Translations under genes and position numbers: made by a program
Part shown: piece after piece, positions 37,034-48,455 of the stretch
Position numbering within the stretch: position 1 is the first letter of the stretch
How the letters are laid out: the number at the start of each line of letters is the position of its first letter
Source of the DNA: a bacterium
GTDB lineage: Bacteria; Patescibacteriota; Minisyncoccia; Moranbacterales; UBA2206
Direction: 5' to 3'
Length of the DNA: 55,345 nt
Assembly (NCBI GenBank): GCA_021777675.1
Contig: JAJYDG010000002.1
Span: 1-55,345, forward strand
Notes under the pieces: model-generated
The model's database searches: none
What the model was told of the DNA's origin: nothing
What the model saw: the letters and a program-made list of their open reading frames with translations, nothing else

Positions 37034-37440
37034 GGGGATGTTTGGTTTCGACAGATTGTACATTTAGAATATGCAAGCCGAGGTTGATCATAACTCGTAA
37101 AACATGATCAAAATTATAAGTGCAAACTTATTTACAAAAGCAAAAACTGCAATCGCTAACGCTTTTACAGTCAACTTTGCTACCGCTCTTGCCTAATTAC
37201 CCTAAAAAGGTTTAGCATCAGCCATTAAATCCATTTTGCGCCTGACAAATGGATTTGGTGCCAAATTATCAGCGCTAGTTTCAAATGTTTTTCTTGAGCA
37301 TTTAAAACGAAAAACTTTCAAGATTAGATTAAAAAGATTTTGTTTATCTTTCACTTTTTAATCGAATTAAAGATAAACTAAGCTTGTAGTATATTTTGGG
37401 TGAATAATTTTGGACGCGAGTTCAACTCTCGCCATCTCCA
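37034..37440 (+). ncRNA. ssrA: tmRNA (SsrA), one-piece, tag ANLFTKAKTAIANAFTVNFATALA
   Basis: 5' GGGGAUGUUUGGUUUCGAC..GCAAGCCGAGG...CUCGUAAAA parallels canonical tmRNA. The tag ORF is GCA 37122 to TAA 37196 and ends in ALA. The 3' end is GGACGCGAGUUCAACUCUCGCCAUCUCCA, a T-arm plus acceptor strand pairing with the 5' end and including G3:U70. Confidence 0.85.
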
Positions 37441-37451
37441 CAGCCGATATA

Positions 37452-39636: not shown

Positions 39637-40305
39637 TTAAAATTTTAAATATTTGTTCCAATGCATATATAATTCCCTGGTTGTTGCCAAATCGCGCGCG
39701 CAATATCGTGCAATTTCCAGATATCTTCCCGTTTGGTATAATTCAGAAACCATTGATCCGTCAACGCCATCATCCTTGGAACTTTTTATGCCAAAAAATT
39801 TAGCGTAAAAATCCAAATTAAATTTTCTCGTTGCTCCATAGAATGTCAGTTGATCAAGCAAATCGCAATGTTTCTGAAATTCATAGCGGTAACCTAACAA
39901 ATTTTTTGTCGGACACACGGAATGTTTGGCACTGCGCAAAAGAAGAAATGGGACATCAAAAGCTCGCCCGTTAAAAGTAATCACAGTATCATATTTTTCT
40001 ATAATTTCCCAAAATTTTCTTAAAATATTTTCTTCCACTCCGCTTTGATATTTTATTCCATTTTCCTTAAATTCCACCTGTTCGCTATTATTATTTTGAA
40101 AAAGCAACATTCCATTTTGCGTATCGGGATTAAGCATACCGATCGCTACGATTTCTCCCGTTAAAGGATACAACCCCAACCTTTTTTTTATTTCTGCTTT
40201 TTCTTCTTCGGTCGTCGCATATTTTAATAAATATTCTTGTGTCTTTTTTTCAAAAGATTCAAAATCAAAACCGATTGTTTCGATATCAATAACGATTTTC
40301 GCCAT
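39637..40305 (-). CDS. RNase H-fold 3'-5' exonuclease related to the PolB exonuclease domain (DEDDy)
   Basis: ExoI IVIDIETIG, ExoII FNGRAFDVPFL, ExoIII YCARD (Yx3D). 222 aa. Confidence 0.65.
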   Translation of the reverse strand: MAKIVIDIETIGFDFESFEKKTQEYLLKYATTEEEKAEIKKRLGLYPLTGEIVAIGMLNPDTQNGMLLFQNNNSEQVEFKENGIKYQSGVEENILRKFWEIIEKYDTVITFNGRAFDVPFLLLRSAKHSVCPTKNLLGYRYEFQKHCDLLDQLTFYGATRKFNLDFYAKFFGIKSSKDDGVDGSMVSELYQTGRYLEIARYCARDLATTRELYMHWNKYLKF

Positions 40306-40340: not shown

Positions 40341-40744
40341 ACAAAAGCGAAATGCCAAATAGTGAAAAACAAAATATTTAAAAGATGTCTGTTTTTACAG
40401 TTTTAGCTTGATAATACAGCTTTAATCCAATAGCTGTCCTTTCTCTTTCCGGAAGCGTTTAAATATCTTTAGTTGTCGCTCGCATTAGTTTCATATTTTT
40501 AATGACTCGAAAACAAATCGCTGTGTTTGATTATTTTCAATAATTACATAAAAAATATTTATTTTTTAGAAAATCAATCATTTTATTAACTGCATCTTCG
40601 ATAGCTTTGTCTTCTTCTTTGCACTGACTGCTGTCTTTCAAATAAGCTCTTACCAAACAATTATCTGACTTATCATAAATGCTGAATCTATTTTTATAAG
40701 CCAAGCATATCGGCTCTCTTTAGTTTCTTTTTCCATAAAAATTT

Positions 40745-42238
40745 TTAAACTGATTTTAATACCCTCCAAATTTCAACCATAGCCAATGTATCGAGATGGC
40801 AATAATCTTTAAGTGCCTGTATTTTCATATCCTTATCTTCATCAGAATATTCTCCTGATACAATACGATTCCAAGTATCTGACGCGGCACCACCTTCTTG
40901 AATATGCATATTTTTATATGAAAGATGGGGAACAAGAGCCGGCAAAACATATTTTATTGAAGCACTTCCCTTAAACTCCGGATGATCATACATTGTGGTT
41001 TTTCCAAAAAATGGAACCATCAAGTCGATGACTCGATTGTTAACATTCTGCATAAAATCCTTGTATTTTGATAATCGTTCTCCAAGTTGTTTATTGATAC
41101 CTTGCTCAAATTTCCGATTCCAAACAATGACACTGCCTTTTTCGGGAAGATGCCTTTTTAATGCTTGGACAAAAGATTCATCTGGGCAATCTTTGTCTGT
41201 ATAAATAAAATCATAATGAACAGATTCGCTATCCGGAGATTCAATCACATGCAGTGAAAATTGAAACGGAATTTGCTGATATGGACTGTATCTATTGTAT
41301 TTTGGTATTGCGGATGGATATGTTTCATAATCAAGAAAAGCCAGCGGATATTTCATTGCTCCTAAAAATTCTGAAATGCCATCCTTATCAATATATTCTT
41401 TGCCGGATTTGGCTGTTTCCACTTGCCTTTTTTGATTGTCTGAAAGCGGAAAATCATCCGGCACATCATGAATATTAAAAATATGACTATCAACCAACTC
41501 GGCTAATTTTGTCTTATGAATTCTTGCAATTGCATGAACAGAATATTCCGGAAGATCCGAGTTCGAATACCACGCTGTCGTGCAATGCGAGTTTTTTCCT
41601 TTTAAAATACAATCGCAATGCCCTCTCGGTTCAGTTTCGCTGGATAACAATTCATAGGCACCCTCCATCTTTTGCTTTATGTCATCCAGCTTCGCATTCA
41701 CTTGACTAGTCAAATCTTCTATAAAAAATAATTCTTGCAAATTAATATCGCCAAGACGAACATATTTTTTATTCAGCCTGATCAGATTGAAAGTTCCCAT
41801 CTCAATGCCTATGGCATCTAAAACATTCTTTTGAAAAGCCATATCTATCAAATAATCATCGGTTTTTCTTCCCCCATTTTCTTCCGAAGCTGTCGATGAT
41901 TTCACTTCATACAAATCATAGACATCCGTGTCAGAGTTAAAAACAAAAATATCAGAGACTGCGAGATATTTTTCAGTTGCAAAAACAGGCTGATAAATTA
42001 CAGGTGTCTTTTCTGCCATAAGCTTCTTTGTGAGTTCCGTATCATCACGAGATTCCACCAGCACGCCACCCGGAAAAAGACCGCGCGCAAGCTCGTCAAT
42101 TTGATTGCCGGTATCAATAATATTCAGTTCAAAAGAAGAAAGCGCTTTTTTCTTATACACCTCCGGCTTATGAATTTTTAGCCAAGCATTCTTTGCACAA
42201 TCGAGGCATATCAGAAAGTTTGTTTTTGATAATTTCAT
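40745..42238 (-). CDS. DUF2779-like protein: N-terminal Cas4/RecB-like PD-(D/E)xK nuclease with a Cys cluster, plus a C-terminal DEDDy 3'-5' exonuclease
   Basis: N-terminus MKLSKTNFLICLDCAKNAWL is typical of DUF2779. SDIFVF...DLYEVKS gives D...ExK. Cysteines lie at CLDC and HCDCILKGKNSHC. The C-terminal part has FLDYET (ExoI), WNRKFE (ExoII-like) and YCHLD (Yx3D). Confidence 0.65.
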   Translation of the reverse strand: MKLSKTNFLICLDCAKNAWLKIHKPEVYKKKALSSFELNIIDTGNQIDELARGLFPGGVLVESRDDTELTKKLMAEKTPVIYQPVFATEKYLAVSDIFVFNSDTDVYDLYEVKSSTASEENGGRKTDDYLIDMAFQKNVLDAIGIEMGTFNLIRLNKKYVRLGDINLQELFFIEDLTSQVNAKLDDIKQKMEGAYELLSSETEPRGHCDCILKGKNSHCTTAWYSNSDLPEYSVHAIARIHKTKLAELVDSHIFNIHDVPDDFPLSDNQKRQVETAKSGKEYIDKDGISEFLGAMKYPLAFLDYETYPSAIPKYNRYSPYQQIPFQFSLHVIESPDSESVHYDFIYTDKDCPDESFVQALKRHLPEKGSVIVWNRKFEQGINKQLGERLSKYKDFMQNVNNRVIDLMVPFFGKTTMYDHPEFKGSASIKYVLPALVPHLSYKNMHIQEGGAASDTWNRIVSGEYSDEDKDMKIQALKDYCHLDTLAMVEIWRVLKSV

Positions 42239-42275
42239 ATGATTTTATTTAAAAAATCCGTCCCTTGCGTAGCTT

Positions 42276-44456
42276 TTATTTTATCATTTGATTGTAGTGC
42301 GCTTCATATCCAGAATCTTCAAATATTTTTTTAAATGCTTCTTTGAAAATTTGAGGGTTAATTTCTTTCGAATCAGAAATGTTTATTGGATCAGAATGAG
42401 ATTCCTTATTTATATATCTTATGAAAAAATTATTTTTCTCATCTTTTTCTAATTCTTTTGTAAGTTCATTAAAATCATTTTTTTCTATAAAACCAAAAAA
42501 CCTTTCGAGAATATTTCTCATTGCATTTGCTAATATTACCTCGGTTGCCCTACCTTCGTCATAATCTTTTAATATTTGCCAGTATGATTGATATTCATTT
42601 TGAATATCTTTGCGATTCATTTCTGATAATTGAGAAAAATCTGACCTGCAAAGTCTAAAAAGTTTTGCGTTGGTATCCTTCTGCTTATGAAGTAGCTCAT
42701 GAAAAAAATATAGATTGTGAGTTAAAACAAACACTTGCTTATAATCATCATTAAAAAAGTTTTTTCTTATTAGCTGTGCTACATTAAAAACATACATATG
42801 CGACAAGCTAGAAATAGGATCATCGATAACGACTATTTTTTCAGTTACCACCTCGTCATTTTTTTCTTTGCCTTTGCATAACTCCAAAAAATACAAGAAG
42901 CTAATTACTGTTTTTTCTCCTTCGCTCAATGTTTCGAATTTAGCCACATCTTCATTTGGTCTTTTAAGTTTATATGAATCTTTACCAGCTGGCACAATAG
43001 AAAATCCGTCTAAGCCAAAAAATATTAATTCACTATTTATGGCATCAATTGCATCTTGAATATTTACCATTTCTTTTTGTGCATCTTGTATTATTTTTTT
43101 CTGTTCATCGATTTCCGTCTTTAATCCTGAAATTTTAGTTTCAATATCCAATTTTTCTTTTTCAAGCTTGGCATTCTGTGTTGCGTGATTTTCTATCACT
43201 TGGTCGTAATACCACCTCATAATTTCCCAAAACTCTTTAATGATTTGGCTCTTTGTTTTTTGCTTATTCTTTATTTTTTCATTGTGAGTTTTTATTTCTT
43301 CAACAATTGTATCTAAAAAATCATTTAAAGCATTTTGCTCTAAAATAGTTGATTCTAAATCAATGATTATGTTTGGACTTTTAATTTTATTGGAAATCTT
43401 TGACCAATTACCGCTTACCTTATCAATAAAATTTTTAAATACGAGCTTAAATGCTGTTTCTTTGTTTTTTATAAAATCTATTTTTAAAAGTTCCGCCTCT
43501 AAATTTTTTATAACTTGATATTCTTTCCAATATTCTTTATCAAAATTTTCTAATGAATTAATTTTATTTTGATAAGTTTCATCAAAGTAATTTTGAATTT
43601 CTTGGTATAATTCCTTAGTAATAGTTTTTTGCTGGCAAAAAGGGCAAACTTCGTTTTCTCCTTCTGGTTCATTAACAAGTTCTTTTCCTTTTTTTACCCA
43701 ATCTGAAATGTTTAACTTGCCTATAAGTTCCGCGACTTGTGAATTTTCGTTACCAATAATAACTTCTTTGAAAATTTCCTGATTTTCTATTTTCCAAAAA
43801 TCAAAACTAACTTTTTTAACCAGATTTTCATCATAAGTTTTAGCATTTTCTCCTTGAGTTGCTTCTGCTTCTTTTTTCAAATCTTCTATTGATTTTTCTG
43901 ATTTATTCTCTGGTTTTTGTAATTTAGAAACATAATCAAATAAGGATTTTTTACTTCCCATCTTTCCATCTAAGCAAAATTCTAAAATTCTATCACCACC
44001 ATAATAGTCATTTTTAATTTTCCAAGTTTTTTTCTCAGAGTCAGATTGCAAGCTAGCAATATCTGCTTGTTTTTTTTCTAAATCAAATTGAAATCCTGTC
44101 TTTAATTCATCATTTTTAATTCGAGCCTCTATTTGCTTTATTTCTTCAGTGGCTTTATCTATCTTTTCTTTCGCCTCTTTGTTTTCTGACTTCAAACTAA
44201 AAATACCTTTTTGAGTATCTTGATAAAAATTATCATCAATAAATTTTTGATTGTAAACTAATACTTTTTCGCTATTTAATCCTTCAATTGAACAATCAGA
44301 GAAGCACTCATTATTTTTATCTTGAAGATACTTTGAAAGAGTTGTTTTTCCTGCTCCATTCAGTCCATAAATAAGATTGATTTTTTTATCAGTCTCTAGA
44401 ATAGCAGGTACTGCACCATAACTTGCAGTATTTTTTATAGAAATCTTAGTAATCAT
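42276..44456 (-). CDS. RloC/PrrC-family (AAA_13) ABC ATPase with a coiled-coil CxxC hook and a C-terminal anticodon-nuclease-like motif
   Basis: Walker A GLNGAGKTT (aa 31-39), CPFC (aa 271-274) inside a roughly 470-aa K/E-rich insertion, signature LSEGEK (aa ~510), Walker B IVVIDDP (aa ~541), and a C-terminal MRNILERFF...NKESH (R-x3-E...H). Confidence 0.65.
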   Translation of the reverse strand: MITKISIKNTASYGAVPAILETDKKINLIYGLNGAGKTTLSKYLQDKNNECFSDCSIEGLNSEKVLVYNQKFIDDNFYQDTQKGIFSLKSENKEAKEKIDKATEEIKQIEARIKNDELKTGFQFDLEKKQADIASLQSDSEKKTWKIKNDYYGGDRILEFCLDGKMGSKKSLFDYVSKLQKPENKSEKSIEDLKKEAEATQGENAKTYDENLVKKVSFDFWKIENQEIFKEVIIGNENSQVAELIGKLNISDWVKKGKELVNEPEGENEVCPFCQQKTITKELYQEIQNYFDETYQNKINSLENFDKEYWKEYQVIKNLEAELLKIDFIKNKETAFKLVFKNFIDKVSGNWSKISNKIKSPNIIIDLESTILEQNALNDFLDTIVEEIKTHNEKIKNKQKTKSQIIKEFWEIMRWYYDQVIENHATQNAKLEKEKLDIETKISGLKTEIDEQKKIIQDAQKEMVNIQDAIDAINSELIFFGLDGFSIVPAGKDSYKLKRPNEDVAKFETLSEGEKTVISFLYFLELCKGKEKNDEVVTEKIVVIDDPISSLSHMYVFNVAQLIRKNFFNDDYKQVFVLTHNLYFFHELLHKQKDTNAKLFRLCRSDFSQLSEMNRKDIQNEYQSYWQILKDYDEGRATEVILANAMRNILERFFGFIEKNDFNELTKELEKDEKNNFFIRYINKESHSDPINISDSKEINPQIFKEAFKKIFEDSGYEAHYNQMIK

Positions 44457-44494
44457 AGTTTAAAATATCGAATTTACTCGATATTTTTTTAATT

Positions 44495-45589
44495 TTATTT
44501 CCCAGATTTTCTTCTATTACATTCTTTGCATAACATTTGGCAATTTTCTGAAATTGTTTTTCCACCTTCGTGCCAAGGAGTTATATGATCCGCTTCCATT
44601 TCCTCTAGTGCAAAATGCTCTCTACATTTTGAACAAACACCCTTCTGCTCTTCATAGACCTTTTGTTTTATGGCGTCAGAAAACGCACGAATCGAAAGAT
44701 GCTTTTCATCGTGAGTCAAAATGTATGGATAAATCCCGCTCTTCTTTGTTACATCATCATCAAGTATCAATTTTGCTATTTCTTTTTCAATTTTTTCCGT
44801 ATTGCATTGCTCATCTTTGTATTTATTATAGAGAGTGCCCCAATCAACACCTTTCATGAACTTCCTTTTTTGAGTGAAGGTGGTTTCTACCCAAGTAATA
44901 ACATCTTGAAAATATCGCCACAAAGCAGCGGCATTTTGATCATGCTGATGCTTTGACATATATTTTTCAATTTCACCGCCACTCACCCAATTAATAACTG
45001 TTTCTAGATAGTCTTGACGAATAGGAGTGCCATTCAAATAATCACTTCCTATACTGTAAGCAACGCACCCGCTCTTACTAAAATATTTTTTTGCGTCAGT
45101 GACCCAGGTGCCGGAATAAACAGCATTTCTTAATTCTTGGTCTGTCAATTTTTCTCCCGCAATATTTATCGTTTTGAACCAATCTAGTTTTTCCCTATCT
45201 GTCCCACTGCACTGATAGACGGTAAGCTTATAATTTAAAATCTGATCTTTTTGATCATTTGTAAGATTATGAAAAGCTAATTTATTCCCTGAAAAATCAA
45301 CAGAAAAATCCCCATTAAAGTACTGACAAATTGAAATTGTGCGCTGTTGTCCATCAATAATTTCGAAATTTCCATCCTCGCGAACAGCCCAATACATCAC
45401 ATTAAGTGGAAACTCTTTTGTGATAGTATCAATAACAGCATCTCTTTGTTTGTCATTGTAAATGAATTCTCTTTGATATGGTGGACGAATATCAAGTTTG
45501 CCACCATACCCCACAACACCAGCTTCAGCATTGTCTTCAAAATTCTCTACCAATTCACGAACTGAAATTTCTTTTAGTTGTATTTCCAT
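44495..45589 (-). CDS. DUF262 (ParB/GmrSD-N-like) - HNH endonuclease fusion
   Basis: PYQREF and IIDGQQRT (DGQQR) motifs in the N-terminal part. The C-terminal part is CSKC...ADHITPWHEGGKT...NCQMLCKECNRRK, an HNH domain with a zinc ribbon. Confidence 0.75.
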   Translation of the reverse strand: MEIQLKEISVRELVENFEDNAEAGVVGYGGKLDIRPPYQREFIYNDKQRDAVIDTITKEFPLNVMYWAVREDGNFEIIDGQQRTISICQYFNGDFSVDFSGNKLAFHNLTNDQKDQILNYKLTVYQCSGTDREKLDWFKTINIAGEKLTDQELRNAVYSGTWVTDAKKYFSKSGCVAYSIGSDYLNGTPIRQDYLETVINWVSGGEIEKYMSKHQHDQNAAALWRYFQDVITWVETTFTQKRKFMKGVDWGTLYNKYKDEQCNTEKIEKEIAKLILDDDVTKKSGIYPYILTHDEKHLSIRAFSDAIKQKVYEEQKGVCSKCREHFALEEMEADHITPWHEGGKTISENCQMLCKECNRRKSGK

Positions 45590-45593
45590 AATA

Positions 45594-46676
45594 TTATTTT
45601 ATTACTTTCTTATTTTTAATTAAAACTCTAAAATACTTTGATTTTCCATTTATTTCAGTCATATGGAGATGTTTTGTCACAGCATTTTCATTCAGGCCAG
45701 CAACATCCAATATTGTATATCTATTTAGTCCATCAATAATCTCAAATTGTTCAGGGTTGTATTTATGCAAGAAGGTTATTGGAACACCTATGATACCGCT
45801 ATAATCTATCGGGATGTCCTTTGTTTTGTCTACATTTATCGCATCGAAATTATCATACTTAAAATATTCACTTTCATTATCAGAATACTTTTTATACAAA
45901 ATCAATTCTTCATGTCTTTTGTTATGGTCTAAGTTCGTAAACCACACTACACCTGCTACAAAAGCATATTTTTTACCGTTCTCAATTTTATGATATGTTT
46001 TATAATAGTCTGGGATTTGAAACCAACGATTTGAACCATTCATGCTAACACCAAGCCACAACTCGTTTTCTTTAACTAATTTGAAAATTTCTTTATATGT
46101 TATTGCATTTTGATTACCAATGACTAAAAATTTTTTGTCATATTCCATCAATTGTGCAACATATTCACGAAATAAAGAAAATGGTGGATTGGTAACAATA
46201 ATATCCGCCTCTTTTAAAATCTCTTTGGATTCTTCGCTTCTGAAATCACCACCACCCTTGAGTGGAGTGGCAACATTTTTATCATGTCTTAAAATCCATT
46301 CAACATCGACCATATTAACAGCACCATCAGAATTGAGATCCCTTACTTCATTAATTTCAATTTTATGTGGCTCTTTTCTTCTTGCTTTTTTTAATCCTTC
46401 TACCTCAAACAATGGAAGTTGTCCCCCGACAACAGGCGAGCCGGCATAACTTGTAGCAATAAGCTTTTTAAGGCCGAGTGCGTTGAAATTAGAAGCAAAA
46501 TATTTAAAAAAATTACTTTCAAAGGGATCATCCGCATTGCAATAAACGACCTTGTCTTTAAATTGATCCTTGTAGTATTTTAACTCTTTTTCTATATCAG
46601 AAAGCTGAGTATAAAACTCATCATTTTTCGCCTTGTTTGCATTGCGCAAATTTTTATTTGATGCTTTCTTTTCCAT
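45594..46676 (-). CDS. N6-adenine DNA methyltransferase, EcoRI-methylase-like
   Basis: N-terminal NDEFYTQLSDIEKELKYY...KVVYCNADDP...FFKYF resembles the M.EcoRI family. Catalytic motif IV is IVTNPPFS (NPPF, nt 46179..46190). Confidence 0.7.
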   Translation of the reverse strand: MEKKASNKNLRNANKAKNDEFYTQLSDIEKELKYYKDQFKDKVVYCNADDPFESNFFKYFASNFNALGLKKLIATSYAGSPVVGGQLPLFEVEGLKKARRKEPHKIEINEVRDLNSDGAVNMVDVEWILRHDKNVATPLKGGGDFRSEESKEILKEADIIVTNPPFSLFREYVAQLMEYDKKFLVIGNQNAITYKEIFKLVKENELWLGVSMNGSNRWFQIPDYYKTYHKIENGKKYAFVAGVVWFTNLDHNKRHEELILYKKYSDNESEYFKYDNFDAINVDKTKDIPIDYSGIIGVPITFLHKYNPEQFEIIDGLNRYTILDVAGLNENAVTKHLHMTEINGKSKYFRVLIKNKKVIK

Positions 46677-46679
46677 AAA

Positions 46680-47594
46680 CTATTTGTTCAAATCATAACT
46701 CTGCTTGATTAAAAGAAAAACTGATTCAAGGTCTTTTTCATCTTTTAATTTCACCTCATAATCTCCATTACCCCAGTGACCCTTCTTGGGTTTCGTAAAA
46801 TCTGTCGCTATATCCAATATATCAATTAATTTCCCACTTTTTACATTGAGCGTAATTCTGATTTCATCTTTATAAATAATCAGGTCGGCAAAGTTAGTTG
46901 TTGTTTTGTAAGCTATGTAAAATTTCTTTGGCTCCTCTCTTATTTCCTCATCGAGAGAAATAATTTCTTCGCGCAATTTATAAAAAAGAGCTTTTGTTTT
47001 TTGATTAGCTTTTTTTAGGTGATAATCTATAGAATAATTTTTTTGCAAAATTTCTGTTTTTTCTTTGTTATTATTTTTTGATTTCCTGATAATTCCAGAA
47101 GTGGAAATTTTTATTTTCTGATAGTTTTCCGGTTCAAGATAAAGGATATCGTTTTCATAAATCCTATATCTCAAAAGTTCAATGTTGATTGGCAAAATAT
47201 CTGCCGTGTCTATATCAAACTTGTTATAACTTTCCGCAACACAAATGACTCGAGGAGAATCCCAGTCGATATCAACTTCGATATTTTTTTCTTTACATAA
47301 AATTTCAAAATCTGCTTTGTGATCCAAGAGCCAGCGCAAATATGAAAGACCTTGATTGATGACGCTATCGTTTTGGCTTTTCTTATACTCAATAATGCAG
47401 GGCGAGCCATTCTTGTCTATGCCCAAAGTATCAATTCTACCCACGAAACTAATCGAATATTCATGAGCCAAAAAATCAATATTCAAAATTTCTTCCAGAT
47501 TATTTTCAAATAATTTCTGCAAGTCTTTTTCCAGGCCTAGAGCTTTCGTCACTAATTTTGATACCTTTGGATTTTGAATCTTGAATAATGCCAT
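46680..47594 (-). CDS. NucS/DUF91-like PD-(D/E)xK nuclease domain fused to a DUF5655-like C-terminal domain
   Basis: GRIDTLGIDKNGSPCIIEYKKS...INQGLSYLRWL gives D-x13-E-x-K plus a Q...Y pattern. The C-terminal half (KFYIAYKTTTNFADL...HWGNGDYEVKL) resembles DUF5655. Confidence 0.6.
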   Translation of the reverse strand: MALFKIQNPKVSKLVTKALGLEKDLQKLFENNLEEILNIDFLAHEYSISFVGRIDTLGIDKNGSPCIIEYKKSQNDSVINQGLSYLRWLLDHKADFEILCKEKNIEVDIDWDSPRVICVAESYNKFDIDTADILPINIELLRYRIYENDILYLEPENYQKIKISTSGIIRKSKNNNKEKTEILQKNYSIDYHLKKANQKTKALFYKLREEIISLDEEIREEPKKFYIAYKTTTNFADLIIYKDEIRITLNVKSGKLIDILDIATDFTKPKKGHWGNGDYEVKLKDEKDLESVFLLIKQSYDLNK

Positions 47595-47737
47595 ATATTT
47601 ATTTTAAAAAAGGAGGGTTTTTGCTGTTTTTATGATACCACTAAGCCAGTAATTACTCAACACTTTTCCAAAATAAGCATCACAAGGGCAATTTCTGAAC
47701 AAATCCAGCCCTGCGACTTGACATCCCATAACACAAA

Positions 47738-47765
47738 AGAATTACGCAATCAATTGCGTAATTCT
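47738..47765 (-). terminator. Hairpin terminator downstream of tRNA-Trp
   Basis: agaattacgcaat ca attgcgtaattct, a 13-nt inverted repeat, with TTTT following on the minus strand. Confidence 0.55.
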
Positions 47766-47773
47766 TTTATCTG

Positions 47774-47844
47774 CACGGGGTGTAGGAATCGAACCTACGT
47801 CAGAAGTTTTGGAGACTCCCGTACTGCCACTGTACGAACCCCGC
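47774..47844 (-). tRNA. tRNA-Trp (anticodon CCA)
   Basis: Hand-folded cloverleaf: acceptor GCGGGGU/ACCCCGU, D-stem GUAC/GUAC, anticodon loop CUCCAAA, T-arm GUAGG-UUCGAUU-CCUAC, discriminator G. CCA is not encoded. Confidence 0.9.
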
Positions 47845-47899
47845 AAACGCCAAAGCCGGCTCACTAAAATCATCCGACTCAGCCTTTAATTGCAAAACT

Positions 47900-48055
47900 T
47901 TATTTCATTTCCTTGTGCAAAGTATTTGTCTTGCATTTTTTGCAAAATTTTTTAAGCTCTAATTTTTCCTTGATTTTCTTCTTATTGCGCTTAGTAAAAT
48001 GATTAATAGAGTTGCAAACGCTACATTTCATTTTAACTAAATTTTCTCTTGTCAT
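47900..48055 (-). CDS. rpmG: 50S ribosomal protein L33
   Basis: 51-aa ORF below the ORF-track cutoff: MTRENLVKMKCSVCNSINHFTKRNKKKIKEKLELKKFCKKCKTNTLHKEMK. It matches the L33 pattern (C..C......K.....LELKK.C..C...T.HKE.K). Confidence 0.85.
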   Translation of the reverse strand: MTRENLVKMKCSVCNSINHFTKRNKKKIKEKLELKKFCKKCKTNTLHKEMK

Positions 48056-48094
48056 AATATTTAAATTAATGTTAATTATTCAAAAAAACTCCGG

Positions 48095-48167
48095 AGCCGT
48101 TGTCCGGAATCGGACCGGAGACCTTTTCCTTACCATGGAAATGCTCTACCGACTGAGCTACAACGGC
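48095..48167 (-). tRNA. tRNA-Thr (anticodon GGU)
   Basis: Acceptor GCCGUUG/CAACGGC, D-arm GCUC-AGUCGGU-AGAGC, anticodon loop AUGGUAA, T-arm UCCGG-UCCGAUU-CCGGA. Note the unusual C at position 55. Confidence 0.85.
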
Positions 48168-48189
48168 CTGCTCTTCTAATTCAATTTTG

Positions 48190-48272
48190 TGGGCCGGGAG
48201 GGATTCGAACCCCCGTAGACCGAAATCGGCTGATTTACAGTCAGCTGCGATTGACCACTCCGCCACCGACCC
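48190..48272 (-). tRNA. tRNA-Tyr (anticodon GUA), class II with a long variable arm
   Basis: Acceptor GGGUCGG/CCGGCCC, anticodon arm GCUGA-CUGUAAA-UCAGC, a 14-nt variable region, T-arm GGGGG-UUCGAAU-CCCUC, discriminator A. Confidence 0.9.
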
Positions 48273-48298
48273 ACTTTTTTCTCTATTTTTCATTAATG

Positions 48299-48370
48299 AG
48301 CCGAAGATCGGAGTTGAACCGATAACCTACTGTTTACAAAACAGTTGCTCTGCCATTGAGCTACTTCGGC
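48299..48370 (-). tRNA. tRNA-Thr (anticodon UGU)
   Basis: Acceptor GCCGAAG/CUUCGGC, D-arm GCUC-AAUGGC-AGAGC, anticodon arm ACUGU-UUUGUAA-ACAGU, T-arm AUCGG-UUCAACU-CCGAU. Confidence 0.9.
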
Positions 48371-48403
48371 AATATTTTTCATCTCTCAAACCTTGATAGC
48401 GCT

Positions 48404-48455
48404 ACTATTCACAAAACAGTTACTCTGCCACTCCGCTACTTCGGCAATATTTTTT
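48404..48455 (-). pseudogene. Degenerate partial copy of tRNA-Thr(UGU): 5' acceptor strand, D-arm, anticodon arm and upstream flank
   Basis: About 52 nt align with 48328..48379 with roughly six mismatches (ctactAttCacaaaacagttActctgccaCtCCgctacttcggcaatattttt). No T-arm or 3' acceptor strand is present. Confidence 0.5.

What the first reader, a model, noticed from the sequence alone, without database searches (positions are those of the whole stretch)
42276..44456. RloC-like anticodon nuclease candidate with a Rad50-style CxxC hook in a reduced-genome bacterium
The 726-aa protein has Walker A (GLNGAGKTT, aa 31-39). A K/E-rich insertion of about 470 aa, probably coiled-coil, separates it from the ABC signature (LSEGEK) and Walker B (IVVIDDP). 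CPFC sits near the middle of that insertion (aa 271-274, nt 43635..43646). This is the architecture described for RloC: a Rad50/SbcC-like zinc hook looped out of the ATPase head. The C-terminal segment MRNILERFF...(35 aa)...NKESH (nt 42396..42518) matches the R-x3-E...H catalytic triad spacing of PrrC/RloC anticodon nucleases. An enzyme that cleaves tRNA would be costly in an organism likely to have a minimal tRNA set, and it is encoded about 3.3 kb from four tRNA genes.
Basis: partly seen in the sequence, partly recalled or inferred. Interest (0 to 1): 0.7.

Follow-up and report, generated by a model that had tools for sequence, protein, structure and literature searches.

The report
RloC-type anticodon nuclease beside restriction genes
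The gene is an ordinary member of the known RloC family of phage-defence enzymes, which stop protein synthesis by cutting tRNA, and here it sits directly behind a restriction-modification system in a small defence island of an uncultured, probably candidate-phyla-radiation, bacterium.

Summary
It is a full-length Pfam AAA_13 protein (E 9e-115) and matches PADLOC candidate defence family PDC-S06 (E 2.7e-232). Relatives 58-88% identical are named 'wobble nucleotide-excising tRNase' (RloC) by JGI. R647/E651/S686-H687 align on the catalytic R320/E324/S355-H356 of a real E. coli PrrC, both pairwise and profile against profile (94.8%). R680-x6-H687 is the HEPN RNase motif. CPFC aligns on the CAFC of classical RloC N-regions (99.1%). 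All these residues are kept in 81 homologues down to 38% identity.

One point stays open. AlphaFold puts CPFC in a beta-hairpin turn inside a helical distal domain with no PDB analogue, so a Rad50-style hook at a coiled-coil apex is neither shown nor excluded.

The gene is the fourth of five tightly packed same-strand genes: DUF5655, an EcoRI-type methylase, a DUF262-HNH endonuclease, the RloC-like gene, and DUF2779. In 13 of its 17 closest relatives it also follows a restriction-modification module, of type I, II or III. Nearness to tRNA genes is not a family trait (6 of 80 loci).

Verdict: a new member of a known kind, of low to moderate interest.

The parts
42276..44456 (-). RloC-family gene, 726 aa: an ABC-ATPase head split by a 470-aa helical insert, with a C-terminal HEPN-type anticodon nuclease domain
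   Evidence: ORF. Pfam AAA_13 covers aa 17-713 of the protein and positions 9-713 of the 713-position profile, E 9e-115. PADLOC PDC-S06 E 2.7e-232 and PrrC model E 6e-17. Close homologues are named 'wobble nucleotide-excising tRNase'. GC 27.7% against 35.2 +/- 1.8% elsewhere in the window.
44340..44366 (-). Walker A / P-loop GLNGAGKTT (aa 31-39)
   Evidence: K37 is present in 80 of 80 aligned homologues.
42930..44339 (-). Helical insert (aa 40-509) between Walker A and the ABC signature
   Evidence: AlphaFold secondary structure: stalk helices 93-113, 122-151 and 398-461, and a distal domain at about aa 152-397. hhalign against classical RloC N-regions gives 99.1% over aa 23-551.
43635..43646 (-). 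CPFC (aa 271-274), the RloC 'zinc-hook' CxxC
   Evidence: C-P-F-C-Q is invariant or nearly so in 81 sequences. It aligns on the CAFC of classical RloC. It is predicted to lie in the turn of a beta-hairpin, strands 268-270 and 278-280.
42912..42929 (-). ABC signature LSEGEK (aa 510-515)
   Evidence: S511, E512 and E514 are invariant.
42816..42836 (-). Walker B IVVIDDP (aa 541-547), followed by the D-loop ISSLS
   Evidence: It aligns on PrrC YVFIDDPVSSLD. D545 is present in 81 of 81 sequences.
42717..42719 (-). Linchpin / switch histidine H580 (LTHN)
   Evidence: Invariant. Aligns on PrrC H251 (TTHS).
42279..42659 (-). C-terminal anticodon nuclease (HEPN) domain, about aa 600-726
   Evidence: hhalign against a PrrC profile: 94.8%, E 5e-8. 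It is predicted to be all-helical. Searched alone, it finds 363 representatives of 50%-identity clusters, and nearly all full-length ones are 710-790 aa with the domain at the C-terminus.
42396..42518 (-). Catalytic residues R647-x3-E651 ... R680-x6-(S686)H687
   Evidence: BLASTP and hhalign pair them with PrrC R320, E324, R349, S355 and H356. They are invariant or nearly so in 81 sequences. The motif definitions come from PMC2610378 and PMC3710099.
44495..45589 (-). Restriction endonuclease candidate, 364 aa: DUF262/GmrSD_N plus HNH. It ends 38 nt upstream of the RloC-like gene.
   Evidence: Pfam GmrSD_N E 3e-19 and HNH E 1e-12. PADLOC REase_II full length, E 1e-133. The same gene precedes the RloC homologue in L030, L032, L034 and L036.
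45594..46676 (-). EcoRI-family N6-adenine DNA methyltransferase, 360 aa
   Evidence: Pfam EcoRI_methylase E 4e-142. PADLOC MTase_II E 3e-129. The gap to the endonuclease gene is 4 nt.
46680..47594 (-). DUF5655 / NucS-like protein, 304 aa, first gene of the same-strand array
   Evidence: Pfam DUF5655 E 1e-13. PADLOC candidate PDC-S18 E 1e-94. The gap to the methylase gene is 3 nt.
40745..42238 (-). DUF2779 protein, 497 aa, starting 37 nt downstream of the RloC-like gene. It is possibly accessory and is not always present.
   Evidence: Pfam DUF2779 E 4e-37. Copies 85-87% identical follow the RloC homologue in L030 and L032. It is absent from the syntenic locus L026.
47773..48370 (-). tRNA array Trp(CCA), Thr(GGU), Tyr(GUA), Thr(UGU), marking the upstream edge of the variable island
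   Evidence: ARAGORN and Rfam. The same array flanks a different restriction-modification module plus the RloC homologue in L026.

Best explanation
The ORF encodes an RloC-family anticodon nuclease, a single-polypeptide abortive-infection or second-line antiphage defence protein.

Shown by sequence and models:
- It has a Rad50/SMC-like ABC-ATPase head whose two lobes are separated by a 470-aa helical insert.
- The insert carries a strictly conserved CxxC at its midpoint.
- The head is fused to a C-terminal HEPN-type RNase domain whose R-x3-E and R-x6-(S)H residues match the catalytic residues of PrrC.

Inferred from the characterised relatives Geobacillus kaustophilus RloC and E. coli PrrC:
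- The protein acts as a dimer.
- In the resting state the nuclease is silenced through the CxxC/zinc element and the ATPase.
- DNA ends plus ATP hydrolysis switch it on.
- The HEPN site then cuts tRNA anticodon loops without metal, leaving a 2',3'-cyclic phosphate. RloC excises the wobble nucleotide.
- Translation stops, so a phage that has escaped restriction cannot complete its cycle.

Context, shown here:
- The gene is the fourth of five closely spaced co-oriented genes and lies directly behind a methylase/endonuclease pair.
- Its closest relatives sit the same way behind type I, II or III restriction-modification modules.
- It therefore behaves as a 'restriction-linked ORF' in a mobile, low-GC defence island next to a tRNA array.
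For: - Pfam AAA_13 full length, E 9e-115.
- PADLOC PDC-S06 E 2.7e-232, and the PrrC model on aa 499-719, E 6e-17.
- Homologues 58-88% identical are named 'wobble nucleotide-excising tRNase' by JGI.
- BLASTP against a genuine E. coli PrrC (annotated anticodon nuclease, between hsdS and hsdR) pairs R647/E651/R680/S686-H687 with R320/E324/R349/S355-H356.
- Profile-profile comparison repeats this pairing: 94.8%, E 5e-8.
- The R-x3-E-x35-(S)H spacing lies between PrrC's x31 and the x36-52 given for RloC, and a Ser precedes the His as described.
- R-x6-H fits the HEPN motif.
- CPFC and the upstream WVKxG align on CAFC and WVRtG of classical RloC N-regions: 99.1%, E 9e-19.
- All these residues are kept in 81 sequences down to 38% identity.
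- The AlphaFold model has pLDDT 85, and its best Foldseek hits are Rad50/SMC heads.
- Restriction-modification linkage: 13 of the 17 closest loci. Restriction-modification domains dominate a census of 129 upstream neighbours. P0010 lies directly behind hsdR plus an M/S fusion.
- Prophage homologues are annotated 'translation-disabling ACNase'.
Against: - There is no biochemical evidence for this protein or for its clade.
- The characterised G. kaustophilus and Acinetobacter RloC sequences could not be obtained. Alignment to them is therefore indirect, through PrrC and through relatives of the sequences shown in the 2008 paper.
- The E-to-H spacing (35) is one residue shorter than the range given for RloC.
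- The catalytic His loop (aa 686-696) is modelled with pLDDT below 50.
- The insert is not predicted as one long antiparallel hairpin, and the distal domain finds no Rad50 hook in the PDB.
- The classical clade has an invariant His six residues before CxxC that this clade lacks. This clade instead conserves C55 and C161. The zinc site may therefore be built differently.
Confidence: 0.82

Rival explanations
1. The protein is the same, but it is regulated as in PrrC. The nuclease would be held inactive by the neighbouring restriction-modification proteins and released when a phage anti-restriction factor disables them, rather than by an autonomous zinc/DNA-end switch.
For: - The gene lies directly behind a restriction-modification pair, with a 38-nt gap.
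- 13 of the 17 closest relatives are restriction-linked, several of them embedded between hsdM and hsdR as prrC is.
- This linkage is much more frequent than the 8 of 72 reported for RloC in 2008.
Against: - The partners are of unrelated types: type I, type III, EcoRI-methylase/DUF262-HNH, and Eco47II/C5-methylase. A specific protein-protein silencing interface is hard to keep across all of them.
- In the syntenic locus L026 the restriction-modification module is swapped while the RloC gene stays 84% identical in DNA.
- Some close relatives stand alone, for example P0045 and P0098.
- The CxxC that provides RloC's internal switch is invariant.
Confidence: 0.2
2. It is an ABC-HEPN RNase of the same family, but with a different RNA target. 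It might cut mRNA, rRNA or another tRNA site, and it might not excise the wobble nucleotide.
For: - Substrate choice cannot be read from sequence.
- HEPN RNases vary widely in target (PMC3710099).
- This clade shares only about 25% identity with classical RloC over the N-region.
Against: - Both characterised branches of the family, PrrC and RloC, cut anticodon loops.
- The catalytic constellation is identical.
Confidence: 0.12
3. It is an SMC/Rad50/LmuB-like DNA-handling ATPase, part of a repair, Lamassu, Septu or PARIS-type system, and the C-terminal domain is not a nuclease.
For: - The best Foldseek hits are Rad50, SMC, PtuA, AriA and LmuB heads.
- There are weak PADLOC matches to LmuB (2.5e-14), mad3 and AriA.
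- An HNH protein is encoded directly upstream.
Against: - Those matches are more than 200 orders of magnitude weaker than the PDC-S06 match.
- No Mre11/SbcD, LmuA/LmuC, AriB or PtuB-type partner is encoded nearby.
- The upstream HNH protein is a full-length REase_II match paired with a methylase.
- The HEPN residues are invariant, which an inert domain would not require.
Confidence: 0.03
4. It is an inactive relic carried along in a decaying island.
For: - The gene has a low GC content of 27.7%.
- No obvious Shine-Dalgarno sequence precedes the ATG.
Against: - The ORF is an intact 726 aa with every motif present.
- The identical protein occurs on 15 contigs from several samples.
- The whole sequence is strongly conserved in relatives.
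Confidence: 0.03

Closest known systems
RloC (COG4694; prototype Geobacillus kaustophilus RloC, Davidov and Kaufmann 2008; Klaiman et al. 2012)
   Same: - Its size falls in the 683-895 aa range of RloC orthologues.
- It has the ABC-ATPase motifs and a large helical insert with a central conserved CxFC.
- It has a C-terminal R-x3-E...(S)H nuclease domain.
- It is linked to restriction-modification loci and sits on mobile DNA.
- Close homologues carry the RloC product name.
   Different: - The E-to-H spacing is 35, against the 36-52 given for RloC.
- It lacks the invariant His upstream of CxxC that the classical clade has.
- It has two further clade-specific conserved cysteines, C55 and C161.
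- Restriction-modification linkage is far more frequent in its clade, 13 of 17 loci against 8 of 72 in the 2008 survey.
- It shares only about 25% identity with classical RloC over the N-region.
- Its activity is untested.
PrrC anticodon nuclease of E. coli (EcoprrI locus)
   Same: - The Walker A, signature, Walker B/D-loop and linchpin His motifs are shared.
- The whole nuclease domain aligns, with R320/E324/R349/S355-H356 matching R647/E651/R680/S686-H687.
- It lies next to restriction genes.
   Different: - PrrC is 396 aa and has no coiled-coil/CxxC insert.
- prrC sits between hsdS and hsdR of a type Ic system, and that system silences the PrrC nuclease (PMC2610378).
- Here the partner is a type II-like methylase/endonuclease pair.
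PADLOC candidate single-gene defence system PDC-S06
   Same: Full-length match to two PDC-S06 models, E 2.7e-232 and 4.2e-153.
   Different: PDC-S06 is only a computational candidate label. The papers found merely list it. In substance it appears to be the RloC family.
Rad50/SbcC and Lamassu LmuB (CxxC-type SMC-like ATPases)
   Same: - The ABC head fold is shared (Foldseek E 6e-6 to Rad50).
- The insert emerges between the two head lobes.
- There is a single CxxC.
- RloC is recovered among LmuB/SbcC homologues in the literature.
   Different: - No Mre11/SbcD or LmuA/LmuC partner is present.
- It has an added HEPN RNase domain.
- The insert is much shorter, and its distal part is not recognisably a Rad50 hook.

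Membership tests
RloC | ABC-ATPase motifs: Walker A, signature, Walker B/D-loop and linchpin His | tested here: met
   GLNGAGKTT at 31-39, LSEGEK at 510-515, IVVIDDPISSLS from 541, and H580. The key residues (K37, S511, E512, E514, D545, H580) are invariant in 68 to 81 homologues. Pfam AAA_13 E 9e-115.
RloC | Large, mostly helical insert between Walker A and the signature, with a central conserved CxxC | tested here: met
   The insert is 470 aa with CPFC at its midpoint. It is predicted to be largely helical. C271 and C274 are present in 81 of 81 sequences.
RloC | The CxxC is homologous to the zinc-hook CxxC of classical RloC | tested here: met
   hhalign of A1 against A3 gives 99.1%, E 9e-19. 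CPFC falls on CAFC and WVKxG on WVRtG. A3 holds relatives of the sequences in Fig. S1 of PMC2610378, not the characterised protein itself. One row of that figure reads ...RCPFCQ...YFDDTF, close to this protein.
RloC | The insert folds back as an antiparallel coiled coil with CxxC at the apex, and zinc bridges two protomers | tested here: inconclusive
   The AlphaFold secondary structure shows stalk helices at 93-151 and 398-461 and a distal helical domain, with CPFC in a beta-hairpin turn. Foldseek of the distal domain finds no significant PDB match (best E 2.9) and no Rad50 hook. Coordinates could not be read. No dimer or zinc modelling was possible.
RloC | C-terminal R-x3-E-x36-52-H triad, with Ser often before the His, equivalent to PrrC R320/E324/H356 | tested here: met
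   R647-x3-E651-x35-S686-H687. The spacing is one residue below the stated range, and PrrC itself has x31. BLASTP and hhalign place these residues on the PrrC triad.
RloC | HEPN R-x4-6-H RNase motif | tested here: met
   R680-x6-H687 aligns on PrrC R349-x6-H356. R680 is present in 80 of 81 sequences and H687 in 81 of 81. The motif is from PMC3710099.
RloC | Residue-for-residue match to characterised G. kaustophilus RloC (K44, C288/C291, D572, R692/E696/H737) | not tested
A reconstruction from the machine-read supplement failed: the best hits were only 33-36% identical.
RloC | Excises the tRNA wobble nucleotide, and is activated by DNA ends plus ATP | not testable with these tools
   This is a biochemical property (PMC2610378 and PMC3458546).
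PrrC | About 400 aa, with an uninterrupted ABC domain and no CxxC insert | tested here: not met
   The protein is 726 aa with a 470-aa insert. BLASTP aligns only the two ends of the protein with PrrC.
PrrC | Gene embedded between hsdS and hsdR of a type Ic restriction-modification locus | tested here: not met
   The neighbours here are an EcoRI-type methylase and a DUF262-HNH endonuclease. The real prrC context is shown.
Rad50/SbcC | Paired with an Mre11/SbcD phosphoesterase, with no RNase domain | tested here: not met
   None of the seven genes scanned at 38.9-47.6 kb (four of them in the five-gene array) has a metallophosphoesterase domain. A HEPN domain is present.
Lamassu LmuB / PARIS AriA / Septu PtuA | Strong match to the family model, and a cognate effector gene (LmuA/LmuC, AriB, PtuB) adjacent | tested here: not met
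   The PADLOC matches are weak: LmuB 2.5e-14, AriA 4e-6. No partner gene is present. The upstream HNH protein is a full-length REase_II match.
PADLOC PDC-S06 | Full-length match to the family HMM | tested here: met
   PDLC04886 covers aa 1-726 of the protein and positions 1-723 of the 727-position profile, E 2.7e-232.

The most novel reading that the evidence does not exclude
In this clade, which is centred on candidate-phyla-radiation bacteria, the RloC gene may be a fixed downstream module behind interchangeable restriction-modification cassettes of types I, II and III. The nuclease would then read a signal common to all restriction systems, such as DNA ends produced by restriction or by its failure, rather than binding one particular restriction-modification protein. 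Its zinc element would also differ from a Rad50-type intermolecular hook. It would be a beta-hairpin knuckle on a new helical domain, perhaps completed within one molecule by the clade-specific conserved C55 and C161.
Probability: 0.2. Interest if true: 0.5.

Novelty: new member of a known kind. Interest (0 to 1): 0.25.

Why it matters
For annotation, the gene can be named with confidence as an RloC-family anticodon nuclease, and the region at about 40.7-47.6 kb can be called a defence island. This adds a tRNA-targeting, abortive-infection type of defence to the small known immune repertoire of candidate-phyla-radiation bacteria, which mostly rely on restriction-modification.

Two modest wider points follow:
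- In this clade the nuclease almost always follows a restriction-modification module of whatever type. One syntenic pair of genomes shows the restriction-modification cassette swapped while the RloC gene stays in place. That is a clean natural experiment on how RloC is coupled to restriction.
- No PrrC or RloC relative was detected among solved structures by sequence, and no RloC structural study turned up in the one paper search made for it. The models here suggest that the 'zinc hook' region is not a simple Rad50-like hairpin. This compact 726-aa protein could therefore be a useful target for structure determination.

Tried and rejected
1. Rebuilding the G. kaustophilus RloC sequence from the machine-read alignment in the 2008 supplement, then searching with it. 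The rows were scrambled and the best hits were only 33-36% identical N-terminal fragments. They were reused as a 'classical RloC' profile.

2. Sequence searches of the PDB with the protein, its family profile and a PrrC profile. Nothing useful was found.

3. Testing the hook geometry. Only secondary structure and confidence values are returned and no coordinates are stored. A separate model of aa 150-400 had no significant Foldseek match.

4. Looking for attachment-site repeats around the island. No convincing flanking direct repeat was found. Only a truncated tRNA-Thr copy turned up.

5. Looking for an island-free variant through the exact L20 protein. All contigs carry the same island.

6. 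tRNA proximity as a functional clue. Rejected: 6 of 80 loci.

7. Lamassu, PARIS, Septu or AbiE membership. Rejected: the matches are weak and no partner genes are present.

8. Naming the organism through cluster members. Only the DUF2779 cluster carried names (Candidatus Moraniibacteriota). The window matches NCBI assembly GCA_021833765.1, contig JAKBEO010000001.1. Its taxon was not resolved.
Full report
**Observation**

The window holds one uninterrupted ORF at 42276..44456 on the minus strand (726 aa, ATG start). A script confirmed every motif at the stated place:
- Walker A GLNGAGKTT, aa 31-39.
- The only CxxC, CPFC, aa 271-274 (nt 43635-43646).
- ABC signature LSEGEK, aa 510-515.
- Walker B IVVIDDP, aa 541-547.
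- MRNILERFF, aa 646-654.
- NKESH, aa 683-687.

The stretch between Walker A and the signature is 470 aa, and CPFC lies at its midpoint. It is only slightly richer in K and E than the whole protein. Four tRNA genes (Trp, Thr, Tyr, Thr) lie at 47773-48370, 3.3 kb away, and a tmRNA lies at 37034-37443.

**Family assignment**

- Pfam AAA_13 (PF13166) matches aa 17-713 against positions 9-713 of its 713-position profile, E 9e-115.
- PADLOC gives a full-length match to the candidate single-gene defence family PDC-S06 (E 2.7e-232). It also gives a match of the PrrC model to aa 499-719 (E 6e-17). LmuB, mad3 and AriA match far more weakly.
- A search of 5.8 billion proteins returned 1995 relatives. The best 120 are mostly full-length proteins of 721-760 aa, 48-88% identical, with some shorter fragments. 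Where a source names them, JGI calls them 'wobble nucleotide-excising tRNase', the RloC product name.
- The papers that define RloC give its hallmarks (PMC2610378, PMC3458546). These are PrrC-like ABC motifs, a coiled-coil/zinc-hook insert with CxxC, and a C-terminal R-x3-E-x36-52-H triad with Ser often before the His. The triad is equivalent to PrrC R320/E324/H356 and to G. kaustophilus RloC R692/E696/H737.
- RloC orthologues in the 2008 survey are 683-895 aa long.

**Test of the catalytic triad**

I recalled the E. coli PrrC sequence from memory and used it only as a probe. It hit a real plasmid gene at 99.2% identity. That gene is annotated 'anticodon nuclease' and lies between hsdS and hsdR, and it was used for all comparisons.
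- BLASTP of the 726-aa protein against it aligns the P-loop region. Separately, it aligns aa 494-714 with PrrC 153-380.
- R647 falls on R320, E651 on E324, R680 on R349, and S686-H687 on S355-H356.
- A profile of 68 homologues (A1) against a profile of six PrrC proteins from type I loci (A2) gives the same pairing, with 94.8% probability and E 5e-8.
- R680-x6-H687 is the R-x4-6-H motif of HEPN RNases, to which PrrC and RloC nuclease domains were assigned (PMC3710099).

**Test of the CxxC**

The characterised G. kaustophilus sequence could not be obtained. An attempt to rebuild it from the machine-read supplement gave only 33-36% identical N-terminal fragments of classical RloC-type proteins.
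- Aligned as profile A3, these fragments match A1 with 99.1% probability (E 9e-19) over aa 23-551.
- CPFC falls on their invariant CAFC, and WVKxG falls on WVRtG.
- One row of the 2008 supplementary alignment (…RCPFCQ…YFDDTF) is very close to this protein's …VCPFCQ…YFDETY.
- In 81 sequences taken from one genome per species (38-100% identity), C271, P272, C274, R647, E651 and H687 are invariant. Q275, R680, S686, K37 and D545 are invariant or nearly so.
- Two more cysteines are conserved in this clade but not in the classical one: C55 (80 of 80) and C161 (75 of 80).
- The classical clade has an invariant His six residues before the CxxC that this clade lacks.

**Structure**

AlphaFold2 on A1 gave mean pLDDT 85 and pTM 0.61.
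- The N- and C-lobes of an ABC head are predicted. The best Foldseek hits are Rad50 and SMC heads (E 6e-6), followed by PtuA, AriA and LmuB.
- The insert is helical but is not one long hairpin. Helices 93-113 and 122-151 leave the head, and helices 398-416 and 418-461 return to it.
- Between them lies a distal region. It has short helices at 157-260, the CPFC segment, then helices 281-290, 293-323, 333-359 and 371-396.
- A separate model of aa 150-400 (pLDDT 80.7) puts CPFC in the turn of a beta-hairpin, with strands at 268-270 and 278-280.
- This distal domain has no significant PDB match (best E 2.9), and no Rad50 hook appears among the hits.
I therefore cannot say whether CPFC is the point farthest from the head, nor whether C55 and C161 lie near it.
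- The catalytic His loop (aa 686-696) is modelled with low confidence.
- No PrrC or RloC relative has a solved structure by sequence search, and no structural paper on RloC turned up. A recent Lamassu study lists RloC among the CxxC-type SMC-like relatives of LmuB and SbcC.

**Genomic context**

Five genes on the minus strand are separated by 3, 4, 38 and 37 nt:
- DUF5655/NucS-like, PADLOC candidate PDC-S18 (46680-47594).
- EcoRI-family N6-adenine methylase (45594-46676).
- DUF262/GmrSD_N plus HNH endonuclease, a full-length PADLOC REase_II match (44495-45589).
- The RloC-like gene.
- DUF2779 (40745-42238).

The RloC gene has 27.7% GC. That is below the lowest equal-sized window elsewhere (31.9%; mean 35.2 +/- 1.8%).

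The identical protein is found on 15 contigs, always in this context. One of them is NCBI assembly GCA_021833765.1.

The nearest relatives are in MAGs of Saccharibacteria, Gracilibacteria, Moraniibacteriota, Collierbacteria, Buchananbacteria, Falkowbacteria and Absconditabacterales. A few are on Bacteroidetes MAG contigs and one is in a Woesearchaeota MAG. Full-length relatives at 38-47% identity occur in Pseudomonas, Flavobacterium, Leptospira and many others. They also occur on Lactococcus, Pseudoalteromonas and Yersinia plasmids. Prophage copies are annotated 'translation-disabling ACNase'.

The C-terminal domain alone finds 363 representatives of 50%-identity clusters. Nearly all full-length ones are 710-790 aa with the domain at the C-terminus.

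**Restriction linkage**

- Among 80 related loci, 18 have type I hsd genes in the flanks.
- Four carry the same EcoRI-methylase/DUF262-HNH pair directly upstream: L030, L032, L034 and L036. Two of these also carry DUF2779 downstream.
- L024 has a type III mod/res pair directly upstream. L029 has an Eco47II endonuclease plus a C5-methylase directly upstream.
- For the 17 closest loci this makes 13 restriction-linked. Two of the remaining four are contigs too short to tell.
- A Pfam census of 129 upstream neighbours from 70 loci is led by N6_Mtase (13), Methylase_S (11), Eco57I (10), HsdM_N (7), ResIII (5), N6_N4_Mtase (4) and GmrSD_N (4). Fic/DOC, integrases and resolvases are also present. This agrees with the published description of RloC-type neighbourhoods.
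- P0010 (86% identical) starts 3 nt after an M/S fusion gene that itself follows hsdR. P0045 and P0098 stand alone.
- L026 is the most informative locus, because it is syntenic with the window. It has the same Thr-Tyr-Thr-Trp tRNA array (81% DNA identity) and an RloC gene 84% identical in DNA. The 154 nt after that gene match window 40565-40413, which lies below DUF2779.
- Between the tRNAs and the RloC gene, however, L026 has a type I-like R + M + S set in place of DUF5655/methylase/DUF262-HNH, and it has no DUF2779.
- The RloC gene therefore stays in place while its restriction partner is exchanged.
- tRNA genes lie within 6 kb in only 6 of 80 loci.

**Mechanism**

Shown here:
- The domain architecture, the conserved ATPase, CxxC and HEPN residues, and homology to PrrC and to classical RloC.
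- The restriction-linked, mobile context.

Inferred from the characterised relatives:
- The protein acts as a dimer.
- Its nuclease is silenced at rest through the CxxC/zinc element.
- Activation requires ATP hydrolysis by its ATPase in the presence of DNA, and linear DNA is by far the most effective form.
- It cuts tRNA anticodon loops without metal, probably excising the wobble nucleotide.
- Translation stops, and infection by a phage that escaped restriction aborts.

The variety of restriction partners argues against a PrrC-style specific protein-protein silencer. It fits better with a signal common to all of them, such as DNA ends. That last step is conjecture.

**Comparison and novelty**

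The protein meets every sequence-level criterion for RloC that could be tested. It fails the PrrC criteria of size and locus. It lacks the partners that define Rad50/SbcC, Lamassu, PARIS or Septu.

It differs from classical RloC in four ways:
- A one-residue shorter E-to-H spacing.
- The absence of the His upstream of the CxxC.
- Two extra conserved cysteines.
- Much more frequent restriction-modification linkage in its clade.

Automated pipelines already name its near relatives as RloC. No paper found discusses RloC in candidate-phyla-radiation bacteria. It is a new member of a known kind, and its interest is low to moderate.

Noticed in passing
window 40413-48371, compared with L026 1-8412: L026 is a syntenic locus in another MAG. 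It keeps the tRNA array, the RloC gene (84% DNA identity) and the spacer below DUF2779. The restriction-modification module in between is replaced by a type I-like R + M + S set, and L026 has no DUF2779. This is cassette swapping at a tRNA-flanked hotspot.
   Followed up: yes
window 48402-48454 (minus strand): This is an 89% identical copy of about 10 nt of upstream sequence plus the 5' part of tRNA-Thr(UGU), running through the anticodon stem, after which similarity stops. Neither ARAGORN nor Rfam calls it a tRNA. The region is weakly conserved in L026 (69%). It may be a relic of a duplication or integration event.
   Followed up: partly
window 44292-44294 (C55) and 43974-43976 (C161): Two cysteines outside the CxxC are conserved in this clade (80 of 80 and 75 of 80) but not in classical RloC. 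Classical RloC instead has an invariant His six residues before its CxxC. Together with C271 and C274 they could form a four-cysteine site. The geometry could not be checked.
   Followed up: partly
window 40745-42238 (minus strand): This is a 497-aa DUF2779 protein with N-terminal cysteine clusters (CLDC near the N-terminus and CDC…C about 200 aa in). It has no relative of solved structure. Copies 85-87% identical follow the RloC homologue in two other MAGs, L030 and L032, and copies at least 90% identical occur in Moraniibacteriota MAGs. It may be an accessory nuclease of the island.
   Followed up: partly
window 46680-47594 (minus strand): A DUF5655/NucS-like protein that matches PADLOC candidate defence family PDC-S18 (E 1e-94). 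It is the first gene of the same-strand array, 3 nt before the methylase gene.
   Followed up: no
L037, L038, L039 and L046 (RloC homologues), and L010/L011 (P0098): Under genetic code 11 these homologues contain 4-21 in-frame stops, and two sequences in the alignment have a stop codon at the Walker A glycines. The P0098 gene does not translate to its database protein. This suggests that UGA is recoded (probably to Gly) in those Gracilibacteria/Absconditabacteria-like genomes. One such locus is labelled Clostridia.
   Followed up: no
L023, L027 and L035: Copies 83-88% identical sit on contigs binned as Bacteroidetes, and a copy 59% identical sits in a Woesearchaeota (archaeal) MAG. This means either recent transfer across phyla and domains, or binning errors.
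   Followed up: no
window 37410-37443: The mechanically called TTG start of the IF3 gene (37410) overlaps the 3' end of the tmRNA gene (37034-37443). The true infC start is probably further downstream or non-canonical.
   Followed up: no
window 39637-40305 (minus strand): A small PolB-exonuclease-like / RNase H-fold protein (222 aa), with a weak PADLOC match to a Cas-associated DEDDh exonuclease. It lies 440 nt below the five-gene array and is followed by a HAD hydrolase gene.
   Followed up: no
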